Source: Leucoraja ocellata (Eukaryota). Taken from it: a DNA stretch of 64,000 bases. The DNA is taken from the NCBI GenBank assembly GCA_036785375.1, contig JAWMAR010000030.1, positions 8,122,001 to 8,186,000 on the forward strand. The letters are read 5' to 3'. Shown in pieces: positions 1-35,794 of this stretch. Each line of letters opens with the position of its first letter. Position 1 is the stretch's first letter. The notes under the pieces are model-generated. The model saw nothing but the letters and a program-made list of their open reading frames with translations. It searched no databases and was not told the DNA's origin. The position numbers were made by a program, and so were the translations under genes.

Positions 1-329
1 ATTGTGAAGTATGAAGACAAGCACTCAGACTGCTAATTCGGAATTGATAATTTTGCTGAATTTATTGGTTATTTCTTTTGTCGTCACTGGACTGAAGAAA
101 GCAGCAATGGCACAACATTTTTCTCAATTTTTAAAAATCTGGATCAGTTACGTAGGAGGCTTGTATGTGGGAATTGCAAGGGATAAGAGACCCTCGGAGC
201 AGCCAACAGCATCGAAAGTTCAATGGAGGCATGGTATTAGAAATGTATGGAAGAGAATAAACATGCAGTTGATCTACATGCAGTAAATTATTTAAACATG
301 GAAGAGTATCCACCAACAAATTACTTTAT

Positions 330-597
330 AGGCAGCACAATGCTAGAGCTGCTGTGTCACAATACCAGAGACCTGGGTTCGATCCTGACCTTGGCTGCTG
401 TCTGGAGTTTACACATTCTCTCTCTGACTGCATGGGTTTCCTCCCACATCCCAAAGATATGCAGGTTTGTAGGTTAATTGAACTCTGTAAAATGACCTTC
501 GAAGAGTGGATGGATGAGATAACAAAACTAGTAAGCTGGTGATCGATGGTCACCCTAACTCAGGCCAAAGGGCCTGTTACAATACTATATCTTTAAG
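330..597 (+). mobile_element. tRNA-derived SINE (HE1/V-SINE-like), shared with duplicate at ~32055-32280
   Basis: ggcagcacaatgctagagctgctg...gacctgggttcgatcctgacc (B-box-like)...gggtttcctcccacatcccaaagat...gtaggttaattg; same family at 17505, 18700, 41547. Confidence 0.75.
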
Positions 598-868
598 CTA
601 TGTTTAAATTTGTATCGGCGAGAAGAAGAAAAATCAATTTAAGGAATAAGAAATGTAGTCTTGTATTTAGTGCAGGACACCCTCAACATTCTGTCTCATA
701 ACAATGTCTAAAATGTGTATGTTGCATTGAAACTAACTTAATCACTAATAACTAGACGAGCAGCTGCGAAGCATTACAAGATTTTGCCTTTTGGACCTCT
801 TGCACAATTAACCTTATGTGAGAAAGCAATATTAGAGAAGTAATGGTTAATCCTTTTTTTGCTTCCAG

Positions 869-1034
869 AAACTGTTTCCCAAAGCACATTGCAGCGCAGC
901 TCATCCTCAAGGCCATCTCCAATTATTTTGATAATGCAACATCATCATCATTGAAGAACATCTTTTTTGTCTTATTCGACAGTGAAAGTATCGGCATCTA
1001 TGTGCAGGAAATGGCAAAGCTTGACATAAAGTAA
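869..1034 (+). CDS. MACROH2A2: Terminal coding exon of an upstream (duplicated) macroH2A.2-like gene; the rest of the gene would lie left of the window
   Basis: Acceptor tttttttgcttccag|A; reads (R)[54 protein letters not shown]; near-identical to exon 32658-32820. Earlier exons are not visible, so function is unproven. Confidence 0.8.
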
Positions 1035-1881
1035 ACTTTTTTTTTAAATGACAAATTTTAAACGGCATTTTGTTCAGCAATGTAGAAAAGTGTGCGTGTG
1101 AATGTGTGTTCAAAAATGGAATGAGAAGGTGCAAAGTATGCGTTCTGTTATCACAAACATGACCAGATGTCTGAAGTGTAAACTTTTGATTACATTTTTA
1201 TAGCACTCCTCCCAAATAGGGAAAATGTTTTGAAATCTACTTGTGGAAAATCAGAAAACAACCTTGATACTGTGCATCTTTTACATGTTTTTTTTTTTGT
1301 GATTTTACTAAAATATGGAAAGTTTAGATTTTTAAGAAAATTGTGACATTTAACAGTCTAGTGGAAAATATATCATGCTGGAAAAATGACTTCATGTAAT
1401 TGTGGTTTTAATTATTCCTTTTTATTAAGCTAGTGTATTGGTTTCACATTCCAGTGTGTAAAGGAACAACAGAAAATTGAAACAGCAATATGGCTGCATA
1501 TGTTTCCTCCAATACCATTTGCTGTAGTTTCATAGTGTGACAGCTTTTTAAAAAAAATAAATAAACTATAAAAAAAATCAGGATGTTCTGATATTAATAA
1601 GATAGATAGCCTGCTCGGAAGGCAAGTAATTCTAAAGAAACGCACAGTTTTGTTGATTGCTGTTCTTTTACCCCCCCCCCCCCCCCCCCCCAGTCTGGGT
1701 CAGTAAAACACTGATTCGAATACTGTGGTCCAAACCCTTTATTCACCGCTGGACCGATTTCGGGGCCCATTCAAGCCTACAGCAGGCTCGCGCAAACAGA
1801 ACAGAAAAAAAGACGACACGTCCCAACGAACCGATCTCCTATTTATACAGCTATACAGTGGTGGGAAAGTACAGAGGGGGG

Positions 1882-32657: not shown

Positions 32658-32820
32658 AAACTGTTTCCCAAAGCACATTGCAGCGCAGCTCATCCTCAAG
32701 GCCATCGCCAATTATTTTGATAACGCAATATCATCATCATTGAAGAACATCTTTTTTATCTTATTCGACAGTGAAAGTATTGGCATCTATGTGCAGGAAA
32801 TGGCAAAGCTTGACATCTAG
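32658..32820 (+). CDS. MACROH2A2: macroH2A.2-like terminal coding exon; full CDS 1149 nt / 382 aa
   Basis: ccag|(R)[53 protein letters not shown]; all exon phases join in frame. Confidence 0.93.
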
Positions 32821-34417
32821 TAATCCTTTTTTAATAACAATTTTGAAACAGCATTTTGTTCAGCAATGCAGAAAAGTGTGTTCAAAAAGTAAATGAGAAA
32901 GTGCAAAATATTTGTTCTGTTATCACAAACATGACCAGATGGTTGAAGAGTAAACTTTTGATTACATTTTTATAGCACTCCTCCCAAATAAGGAAAATGT
33001 TTTGAAATCTACTTGTGGAAAATCAGAAAACAACCTTGATACTGTGCATCTTTTGCAGGTTTTTTTTGTGATTTTACTAAAACATTGAAAGTTTAGATTT
33101 TTAAGAAAATTGTGACATTTAACAGTCTAGTGGAAAATATATCATGCTAGACAAATGACTTCATGTAATTGTGGTTAAGTATTCCTTTTGTTACGCTAGT
33201 GTATTGGTTTCACATTCTAGTGTGTAAAAGAACAACATAAAATTGAAAGCAATATTGCTGCATATATTTCCTCCAATACCATTTGCTGTGTGATTTCATA
33301 TGTGACAAGTTTTAAAAAAACTATAAAAAAAATATCTGGATGTTCTGAGGCAAGTAATTCTAAAGAAACACATGGGCTCTTTAAAGTATGTTAAATATTG
33401 TGGAAGGAGGGTCATTGTCCAATAAGACCATGAGAATAATGTGGCTGCAATTTGAACCTATAGCCTGTGCACGAGTTTCCAGTTTTACCCAAGTGGGTTT
33501 AAATGAATGATTTAGCTTTTCTATCTACCTTGGATGCTACTCTCTTGTAAGCAGTTGGATTCCCAACATCCCGTCTACACGTGCTAATCTTTTTTTAAAA
33601 TCTCAATTGTAGATAAATGGTAAAAAGTAACAAGGGCGAGTTACTGGGCATATTAGAACAAGTTATAAGATTACAAGGGAACCTAAATGGAAGTTGGCAT
33701 GAACAGTGGGCTGACCAGCTGCCTTGTGTCAGTGGAACCCTGGCTGTGCGTGACCAACTTTTAATTTCCTCTTATAATTAAAGGGCAGAGTAAAGCACAT
33801 GTTTGTTCTCTTTGTTCATTGAAGTTGTACACATGGACGATGACAACTTTTAAATAAATAAATATAGATTAATCACCTTGTCATGCACATTTGTAAAGAG
33901 ATATCAAATACTGCATATTTTGGAGGTACTCAATAAGTAGCATAAGTAGATAAGAACAGATCATAAGTCTGAAATGAAGCATCTTTTCCTAATGGAGATG
34001 TTCAAGTTGGGAAAATTATGCCATGTTGCTGAAGGAATTAAATGTAACCATAACATTTATTTGGGCTAGATGTTTAGACAAAATGTCATGTGTGCCTACC
34101 GTAATGGAACATTTAGAACTATTCTGAAATGCCGGTGCATTATTCAAGTAATTTATTAACTTGAATTCCTTGGATCGTAATTATTGTAATTCATTCAACT
34201 GAGGTCTGTTGGCCATGACACAAGACATGTTTACAGCAAGTTGACAAAATTCACCTTAAATGTTCCCAAAGATTTAACACTGCATGGTCTAGTCTGTTTC
34301 AATTGTCTTTTAGCTGGAACGTGCCATTGTGACCTTCCAGGCCCAGACAATTTGTTTCAGAATAAGATTTTGCATAAATGTGATGTATAATTTAATTTGC
34401 TTTTTCAATATAAATTC

Positions 34418-34508
34418 AATAAAGAAAGCTACTTGCTGTAACTCCTCACAGATCACCTAGTTAAATCAATAAACCACAGCTAAATTTCTTTACATTTTGA
34501 TATTTATT
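34418..34508. terminator. Candidate convergent poly(A) signals of macroH2A.2 (+) and GBF1 (-)
   Basis: + AATAAA at 34418-23 and 34468-73; - AATAAA (tttatt) at 34503-08; all retained in copy 1 (5655, 5705, 5740). Confidence 0.45.
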
Positions 34509-35794
34509 ACTGTAAAAAGTACATTTAAATTTTCTTTAAACCATTCTTTCTATATACATTACCTATGTCTACTATCCTTCCCCCATTCTCACCCAGAGAA
34601 TGTGGGACAGATCATTTAAGTTTTACCATAACCACAGAAAGTTTTGTTGCCATTTTGCACACATTAAATTAAAATCTTCGTGAAATGTACAAAATTTAGA
34701 ACAAAGTAACAAAGACTTTGAATATAGATTCTGTTGGTCTCAAATTACACAAGCTTTGGCCTTCATGCCTATTTATGTTTTGGGTCATTTACAGCTAATT
34801 CAGGCTATATGGGAAGCAAACAGGACAGGAATGTAAAGCAAGCTCAACATATCCACCGGCATTATTTTTTTTATATTACAATTTCACATCTCTAAATATA
34901 TTGGTACAAGTGAAAATCGTAACCACTGCAAATTCATTTATATTTATACACTTAATGTTTTACACTAGGTTTCCATTTAATATGCAGTATAGAAACTTCC
35001 TAGAAACTGCAGACAATTGGAAATACAAACCAAAACCATTGAACAAAAATTATTAATTGGGGTGAAAATCTAAAGTTGACAAACTTACATTTGACAACAA
35101 AAACAAGCCAAGTCCTGGGAAAGGAAATAAGCTACTATGAAATGGAACTTAACATGAGGTTTCAAAGGGTGGAATACTTTGACTATCACATTTGGGTTAG
35201 GTAAAACATCCATCCTGCTGCATGATATTTAAAAAAAATCATGCATTTTATTACTCTACAAGGTTGTTTATCTCTTGCTCTTTTGTATTATGCAACCTGA
35301 GTATCAGGGTCCTGTTGTAGCCCTTCACATTGTCACTTATCTTCTGAAAATTACTTGAAACATATCACTTAAATAAAGGGCTACTATACAGATAACTTAA
35401 TGTTAGTTTACAGCCAAAAAACACATTTTCATGTTCATTATAATGTGGCAAACAGCATTTTAGAAACATTGATAACTTGAGCAGATAATGAATAAAACAT
35501 TGCAATGCAACACAGATGGCTTTTGCCTTCGGTCGTACTCTACATTGAATGTTTGACAGTATTTGGCGCTCAATATGGCTAATGCTCCAAAAATAAATAA
35601 TGGTATCTGGAGCAATACATTCTTTGCAGTGATGGATGCATGATTTCTTCACACAAATTGAACATTAGAGTCAGTGACTGGTTCGAAAAGGTGAGAAATT
35701 ATTTTTAAAAAAGCTTGACAAAAAGAAGTATATTGTCATAATACAAAACAGAAGAACATGTTAAATAAACTGATCCTTTCCTAATCTAGAGGAA

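What the first reader, a model, noticed from the sequence alone, without database searches (positions are those of the whole stretch)
1..35752. Tandemly duplicated macroH2A.2: a possible extra histone-variant paralog
Seen: 1-7017 aligns to 31750-35752 and holds a second open macroH2A terminal exon with an intact acceptor and stop, upstream of a complete 8-exon copy. The copies differ by many substitutions, indels (e.g. ~105 bp at 32378-32483 absent from copy 1) and a 3-kb ERV, so they are not recent alleles. Known: most vertebrates have just MACROH2A1 and MACROH2A2. Inference: this lineage has at least two tandem macroH2A.2 genes, and the duplicated unit may run from ~12.2 kb to 35.75 kb.
Basis: partly seen in the sequence, partly recalled or inferred. 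Interest (0 to 1): 0.8.

Follow-up and report, generated by a model that had tools for sequence, protein, structure and literature searches.

The report
Second macroH2A.2 gene in hardnose skates
Skates of the genera Leucoraja and Amblyraja carry two intact, side-by-side copies of the chromatin gene macroH2A.2; one is the main expressed gene, while the other has changed faster, is expressed at a lower level, almost never used an old alternative exon in the RNA examined, and is likely kept as a specialised variant.

Summary
The duplication is real. Upstream copy A has all 8 coding exons outside the window (377 aa, open); in-window copy B is also intact (382 aa). A and B differ by 7.2%, whereas a second copy of the whole region on this scaffold (likely the other haplotype) differs by 0.98% and also holds both genes. 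RefSeq already lists both in Leucoraja erinacea and Amblyraja radiata; the other cartilaginous fishes found have one. A and B form a clade sister to Rhinoraja. B gained 16-17 amino-acid changes before the two genera split (A 4-5, p about 0.015), some at residues invariant in 117 other macroH2A.2 proteins, then changed at A's rate (5 against 5). In two bulk RNA runs B gave 4-19% of reads at diagnostic sites and almost never used a 42-nt alternative exon that A includes in about a third or more of transcripts. Two gene-conversion-like tracts lie around exon 7. Verdict: a new lineage-specific member of a known family, not described in the papers searched; specialised function is inferred, not shown.

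The parts
869..1035 (+). Copy A (conserved, main gene): last coding exon. Exons 1-7 lie upstream of the window at G000:C30:8105488-8118640; its alternative 42-nt exon at C30:8121088-8121129
   Evidence: protein identical to P0020 (XP_055517761.1)
1..7017 (+). 3' end of duplicated unit A (whole unit C30:8095800-8129017)
1642..4640 (.). Old insertion bounded by direct (LTR-like) repeats, present in A on both haplotypes, absent from B; class not confirmed
7018..12166 (.). Junction between the units: repeats, inverted pair 7045-7411 / 11811-12149, Pao peptidase fragment at 7529-7930
12167..35752 (+). Duplicated unit B
12800..14300 (+). CpG-rich 5' region of B (observed/expected CpG 0.97-1.25), likely promoter; start site not mapped
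19840..20011 (+). Copy B coding exon 1
20186..20292 (+). Copy B exon 2
21933..22163 (+). Copy B exon 3 (linker, 18 nt longer than in A)
23670..23780 (+). Copy B exon 4
24734..24833 (+). Copy B exon 5
27596..27685 (+). Copy B exon 6, followed by a GC donor (also in A)
28680..29442 (.). Tract with no fixed A/B difference in 763 columns but normal haplotype variation: likely gene conversion
29355..29529 (+). Copy B exon 7
30015..30918 (.). Second tract with no fixed A/B difference (550 aligned columns): conversion or a conserved intronic element; ends near a 365-bp stretch missing from B at 30891/30892
30951..30992 (+). Alternative 42-nt exon (14 aa, Ser/Arg-rich) in B; splice sites intact but inclusion reads carry A alleles
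32658..32821 (+). Copy B last coding exon with stop
61936..62199 (-). Stretch holding a GBF1 exon (neighbouring gene, convergent; not part of the duplication)

Best explanation
Two intact, expressed macroH2A.2 genes lie head to tail; they likely arose by one tandem duplication in an ancestor of Leucoraja and Amblyraja after the split from Rhinoraja, copy A keeps the conserved protein, most of the RNA and the 42-nt alternative exon, and copy B is likely maintained by selection as a minor, specialised variant after an early burst of change. Shown: both genes, their open frames, the asymmetry in amino-acid change, B's lower RNA share in two bulk runs, and near-absence of B alleles in reads that include the alternative exon. 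Inferred: B protein enters nucleosomes like any macroH2A; its changes in the histone fold (M28L, M29L, V47I, I53M, S102C), its longer and more basic linker (26 against 21 K+R) and its macrodomain changes (L197H, E251K, R260F, T304A) alter where it is deposited or what it binds; the 365-bp loss 59 bases upstream of the alternative exon causes the skipping; partial gene conversion has lowered A/B divergence around exon 7.
For: Both frames open on both haplotypes with canonical splice sites. A/B 1289 differences in 17794 columns (7.2%) against 977 in 100064 (0.98%) between haplotypes. Both genes in L. erinacea and A. radiata under neighbouring accession numbers on one contig length each. Tree: A+B 100/96, A 97/92, B 100/100, B stem 0.058 against A stem 0.014; an A+Rhinoraja clade is rejected, p-AU 0.007, and pairing this genome's A with its B at p 2e-71. 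Changes shared by both genera: B 16-17, A 4-5, p 0.012-0.017 with three outgroups; between genera 5 and 5. L197 and R260 are invariant in 117 of 117 other macroH2A.2 proteins, V47 and I53 in 116 of 117. B's exons show 1 haplotype difference in 1174 columns where 11.2 are expected from its non-coding rate (p 2e-4), none changing a residue. B-type spliced reads at the exon 3-4 joint: 68 of 289 (X23) and 29 of 465 (X24); non-A alleles at seven last-exon/3' UTR sites 14-19% and 4-9%; at the alternative exon 0 of 234 and 1 of 497.
Against: No function, protein or tissue was tested; run tissues are coded. The asymmetry is not significant for the Amblyraja pair alone (8-9 against 16-18, p 0.08-0.17), and the test that the burst is confined to the stem is not significant (p 0.12-0.22). 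Overall A/B dN/dS is about 0.44 (dN 0.036, dS 0.082), which relaxed selection can give. RefSeq lists exon-6-skipping forms for B in both skates and none for A among the members read, which may mean sloppier splicing. RefSeq also predicts B forms with the alternative exon in L. erinacea (P0014, P0016), so the loss may be incomplete. No B-type protein came from Logan contigs, while A-type did. The purifying-selection test rests on two haplotypes.
Confidence: 0.55

Rival explanations
1. B is a redundant spare copy: it drifted under relaxed selection after duplication and is kept only weakly, for dosage, with no distinct role.
For: Lower RNA share, loss of use of the alternative exon with an R-to-W change in it, exon-6-skipping forms in RefSeq, changes at otherwise invariant residues, dN/dS about 0.44.
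Against: B is intact in two genera; its rate between genera equals A's (5 and 5); its exons lack haplotype variation; its RNA share differs about two- to fourfold between two runs (exon 3-4 joint, Fisher p 2e-11), although species or individual effects were not excluded.
Confidence: 0.36
2. The duplication is older than the rajid skates and looks young because gene conversion homogenised the copies; other lineages lost or lack an annotation of B.
For: Fixed A/B divergence varies from under 1% to 13.5% along the unit; two conversion-like tracts; the LTR-like repeats of the A-only insertion differ by 13.7%. Absence in Rhinoraja and others rests on protein clusters, not on genome searches.
Against: One macroH2A.2 gene name per species among the other cartilaginous fishes listed; A and B share many derived residues across all domains; AU test rejects A+Rhinoraja, though conversion could produce this too.
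Confidence: 0.07
3. The tandem pair is an assembly artefact (two haplotypes placed side by side).
For: This scaffold does hold such duplicates: 3 of 3 probes searched had a second 97-99% copy on C30, two of them on the same strand; macroH2A.1 is on two contigs at 98.5-99%.
Against: A/B divergence is seven times the haplotype level; the second copy of the region holds both genes with identical proteins; two other species' assemblies hold both; reads show both allele sets at ratios far from 1:1.
Confidence: 0.01

Closest known systems
Vertebrate macroH2A.2 (MACROH2A2 / H2AFY2)
   Same: H2A fold, basic linker and macrodomain; groups with macroH2A.2 at 99/97; macroH2A.2-type exon 5 and the acidic residue in the ligand pocket (against PMC8232725 passages).
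   Different: Two tandem genes instead of one. Both skate proteins, like those of the other cartilaginous fishes aligned, lack the two extra prolines of the human distal-phosphate loop, and a 14-aa alternative exon inserts at that loop (23 stored proteins, all from cartilaginous fishes or identical to skate A).
RefSeq 'core histone macro-H2A.2-like' genes of Leucoraja erinacea (XP_055517755-61) and Amblyraja radiata (XP_032868455-63)
   Same: A is identical to XP_055517761.1; B matches XP_055517757.1 apart from 3 extra linker residues.
Lineage-specific histone variant duplicates such as H2A.Z.1/H2A.Z.2 and mammalian short H2A and germline H2B variants (PMC2644675, PMC5880237, PMC8857922; search listings and abstract starts only)
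   Same: A duplicated variant gene diverging in sequence; likely division of labour.
   Different: Here the copy is a full intron-containing tandem duplicate that is still 92% identical in protein; germline restriction was not tested.
macroH2A1.1 / macroH2A1.2 splice switch
   Same: Alternative splicing changes the macrodomain near the ADP-ribose pocket (PMC12551714, PMC8232725 passages).
   Different: The skate exon is a cassette insertion in macroH2A.2 between exons 7 and 8, not a mutually exclusive exon; any effect on ligand binding is untested.

Membership tests
macroH2A.2 | H2A histone fold + basic linker + macrodomain in one protein | tested here: met
   Pfam PF00125, PF16211, PF01661 above cut-off in P0020 (= A) and P0001 (B less 3 residues)
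macroH2A.2 | Orthology: groups with vertebrate macroH2A.2, not macroH2A.1 | tested here: met
   99/97 support; a separate macroH2A.1 gene is on C149/C344
macroH2A.2 | Intron-containing gene, spliced and polyadenylated | tested here: met
   All seven constitutive joints seen in oligo-dT runs; B-specific joint at exons 3-4, (the other joints mix A and B reads)
macroH2A.2 | Acidic residue at the pocket position where macroH2A1.1 has G224 | tested here: met
   Aligned to E of human macroH2A.2 chains 6fy5 and 2xd7; feature from PMC8232725
macroH2A.2 | Incorporation into nucleosomes; no ADP-ribose binding | not testable with these tools
   Needs biochemistry
Mammalian-type macroH2A.2 pocket (descriptive, not the orthology criterion; not filed under it) | Two prolines in the distal-phosphate loop | tested here: not met
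   Absent in both skate copies and in the other cartilaginous fishes aligned
True tandem paralogues | Divergence well above allelic level and both copies on both haplotypes | tested here: met
   7.2% against 0.98%; four gene models
True tandem paralogues | Both copies in independent assemblies of other species | tested here: met
   L. erinacea and A. radiata; adjacency there is inferred from accession order and contig length
True tandem paralogues | Normal read depth and long reads across the junction | not tested
   No DNA run was laid
Pseudogene (either copy) | Broken frame, missing exons or no RNA | tested here: not met
Endogenous retrovirus (3-kb insertion) | Retroviral gag/pol/env homology between LTRs | tested here: inconclusive
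   Terminal direct repeats and dispersed copies; no Pfam match for its two ORFs

The most novel reading that the evidence does not exclude
Rajid skates have evolved a third macroH2A protein class: copy B was remodelled by positive selection in its histone fold, linker and macrodomain surface, gave up an alternative exon that chimaeras, sharks and rays have kept in the macrodomain's ligand loop, and now marks chromatin in a particular tissue or stage such as the germ line.
Probability: 0.25. Interest if true: 0.7.

Novelty: new member of a known kind. Interest (0 to 1): 0.45.

Why it matters
Vertebrate macroH2A is described as two genes (PMC12551714, PMC9526256, passages), and the ligand or partner of the macroH2A.2 macrodomain is unknown (PMC8232725, passages). 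A young natural pair, 92% identical, with about 20 changes at conserved positions and a splicing difference, in a laboratory skate genus, gives a small set of residues to test for targeting and binding. The 14-aa alternative exon is a macroH2A.2 isoform that I did not find in print. For skate genomics, the case also shows how to tell a real paralogue from the haplotype duplicates that fill this scaffold.

Tried and rejected
Haplotig artefact and partial pseudogene: rejected. Four genes in this genome: rejected; the inverted second pair at C30:5.17-5.23 Mb is read as the other haplotype because 3 of 3 probes searched (of 6 fetched for this, L037-L042) also had a 97-99% twin on C30; not proven by depth. 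Rfam: no match at gathering score in the window. AlphaFold model of P0014: mean pLDDT 52, not used and not searched. PDB search of the neighbouring exon gave nothing; it was named. Run search: no RNA holder listed on record; shares of words in unlaid runs are not used as evidence. The two single-cell runs had too few reads to judge B (for example 3 of 56 and 0 of 50 non-A at 33149). Presence of both copies in further coded species was left open. Earlier findings of this scan: none. L043-L048 were fetched and not used. One bin (24000-24499) was misaligned for A and was dropped from A's rate. Rivera-Casas 2016 and Guberovic 2021 were not held.
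Full report
Observation. A self-comparison of the window aligns 1-7017 with 31750-35752 in three blocks. With the insertion left out there are 263 mismatches in 3868 gap-free columns and 67 gaps. The upstream terminal exon (869-1035) has an AG acceptor and a stop.

Both genes are whole. The window is G000:C30:8122001-8186000. Exon 1 and exon 7 searches each found four macroH2A.2-type places on C30 and two macroH2A.1 places on C149 and C344. From fetched stretches I built four models, each with 8 coding exons, AG acceptors, GT donors and one shared GC donor: A (377 aa, C30:8105488-8123035), B (382 aa, window 19840-32821), and an inverted pair A2 and B2 at C30:5.17-5.22 Mb whose proteins are identical to A and B. 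Unit B spans 12167-35752 and unit A C30:8095800-8129017, with about 5 kb of repeats between them.

Not a haplotig artefact. A and B differ at 1289 of 17794 aligned columns (7.2%; this total includes a few repeat-derived blocks), while the region and its inverted twin differ at 977 of 100064 (0.98%). Three of three 3-kb probes searched elsewhere on C30 had a 97-99% twin on the same scaffold, so the twin is best read as the second haplotype; depth was not checked.

Range and age. A is identical to XP_055517761.1 of Leucoraja erinacea, and B matches XP_055517757.1 apart from three linker residues; Amblyraja radiata also has both. Rhinoraja, four ray genera plus Narcine, the sharks listed and Callorhinchus each show one gene name in the ten clusters read. 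This is absence from a protein collection, not from genomes. Trees place A+B together (100/96) next to Rhinoraja inside macroH2A.2. AU tests reject A+Rhinoraja (p 0.007) and a within-genome A+B pair; the groups were named after the first tree was seen. GBF1 is the downstream neighbour, and its hits share contig lengths with macroH2A.2 records of Amblyraja and several sharks and rays.

Asymmetry. A/B dN is 0.036 and dS 0.082. Against five outgroups this genome's B has 18-20 private changes and A 4-6 (p 0.003-0.015); for the Amblyraja pair the figures are 16-18 and 8-9 (p 0.08-0.17). Counting only changes shared by both genera, B has 16-17 and A 4-5 (p 0.012-0.017); between genera each copy differs at 5 positions; the test that the burst is confined to the stem is not significant (p 0.12-0.22). 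In an alignment with 117 other macroH2A.2 proteins (105 bony-vertebrate hits after dropping 4 of 109 named macroH2A.1, plus 12 cartilaginous fishes; top 120 of 1363 hits), L197, R260 and K38 are invariant and V47 and I53 are kept in 116; B changes all five, K38 only in Leucoraja. That K38 lies in the L1 loop and S102 in the docking domain is recalled numbering; the roles of those regions in targeting are from PMC6277393 and PMC8232725 (passages). B's linker is 6 residues longer, with 26 against 21 basic residues. Between haplotypes B's exons differ at 1 of 1174 columns against 11.2 expected (p 2e-4); fixed A/B differences are about 31 replacement and 19 silent, haplotype differences 0 and 4 (Fisher p 0.028). 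Two haplotypes make this a thin sample.

Expression. Four raw RNA runs of coded organism A were laid on B at 88% likeness, so both copies' reads count (40 of 1084 difference rows and 15 of 446 joints were shown). The last codon of exon 3 separates the copies: B-type joints were 68 of 289 in X23 and 29 of 465 in X24. At seven sites in the last exon and 3' UTR, non-A alleles were 14-19% and 4-9%. A reads lay less well in exon 3, so the joint figures likely overstate B. Tissues are unknown, and organism A may be a different species from this genome.

Alternative exon. A 42-nt exon at 30951-30992 was included in 199 of 511 and 427 of 968 upstream joints (148 of 460 and 326 of 867 downstream). Reads over it carried A alleles: non-A 0 of 234 and 1 of 497 at 30973. 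L. erinacea's B has the same W codon there as this genome (P0014), which supports the site as diagnostic. B lacks 365 bases 59 bases upstream of this exon and has a shorter pyrimidine tract, on both haplotypes; a causal link is inferred. The insert was found in 23 stored proteins, from chimaera to skates, and in none of the bony-vertebrate hits; the pattern search could miss odd forms, and those hits are cluster representatives. [quoted passage not shown] Against this reading, RefSeq predicts B forms with the exon in L. erinacea, though none in Amblyraja among the members read.

Gene conversion. Fixed A/B differences average 6.6% but are absent over 763 columns (28680-29442) and 550 columns (30015-30918); the first tract keeps normal haplotype variation, which fits conversion better than conservation; the second could be either. 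Other bins reach 13.5%, and the terminal repeats of the A-only insertion differ by 13.7%, so the duplication is likely older than the mean divergence implies.

Mechanism and odds. That these are true paralogues is about 0.98. I put 0.55 on B being kept as a specialised minor variant after an early burst, 0.36 on a weakly kept spare, 0.07 on an older duplication masked by conversion. The breakpoints lie among repeats, so unequal crossing-over is a likely but untested origin.

Literature. Nine searches (macroH2A with cartilaginous, skate, chondrichthy, shark or lamprey, duplication, splicing; Leucoraja with h2afy) listed no paper on this duplication or this exon. I read passages of PMC8232725, PMC9526256, PMC12551714 and PMC6277393, and saw PMC2644675, PMC5880237 and PMC8857922 only as listings. 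The main evolutionary papers on macroH2A (Rivera-Casas 2016; Guberovic 2021 and 2023) were seen only in a reference list, and they or their supplements could mention skate sequences. Extra macroH2A.2 copies from whole-genome duplication in some bony fishes are recalled, not tested here.

Verdict. A real, expressed, lineage-specific tandem paralogue, already in automatic annotation, with a divergence pattern and a splicing difference worth a specialist's attention. New member of a known kind; interest 0.45.

Noticed in passing
window 30951-30992; G000:C30:8121088-8121129: A 14-aa alternative exon of macroH2A.2, conserved from chimaera to skates and not seen in 105 bony-vertebrate proteins, included in 32-44% of joints in two runs; it inserts at the macrodomain's phosphate-binding loop.
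   Followed up: partly
G000:C30 (5.14-6.33 Mb against 7.0-8.19 Mb; 3.00 against 3.43 Mb; 9.50 against 9.63 Mb): The scaffold carries near-identical twins (97-99%), inverted or direct, likely unpurged haplotypes; other tandem-duplication findings from this genome need the same check.
   Followed up: partly
G000:C30:8087115-8094386 (L015-L016): A partial third copy of the CpG-rich 5' region lies just upstream of unit A, also on the second haplotype; no coding exons. It might be an alternative promoter.
   Followed up: no
window 30447-30891: 445 bases with one A/B difference upstream of the alternative exon, found only in the four gene copies; conversion or a conserved splicing element. A few A-type reads cover 30559.
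   Followed up: partly
window 27596-27685: Exon 6 ends in a GC donor in all four models; RefSeq lists exon-6-skipping forms only for B (P0002, P0016).
   Followed up: no
window about 45000-63000, minus strand: Exons of GBF1, convergent with copy B; one exon confirmed by protein search, the others assumed.
   Followed up: partly
proteins A and B, positions 17, 21, 35, 171, 209, 261, 300, 344 (A numbering): Both skate copies share derived residues, including V21I (V in 117 of 117 others) and K300M, so change had already sped up before the duplication or was spread by conversion.
   Followed up: partly
window 25534-26600 and 39592-41192: Tc1/mariner-like transposon remnants (Sleeping Beauty-type HTH below cut-off; DDE_3 above cut-off).
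   Followed up: no
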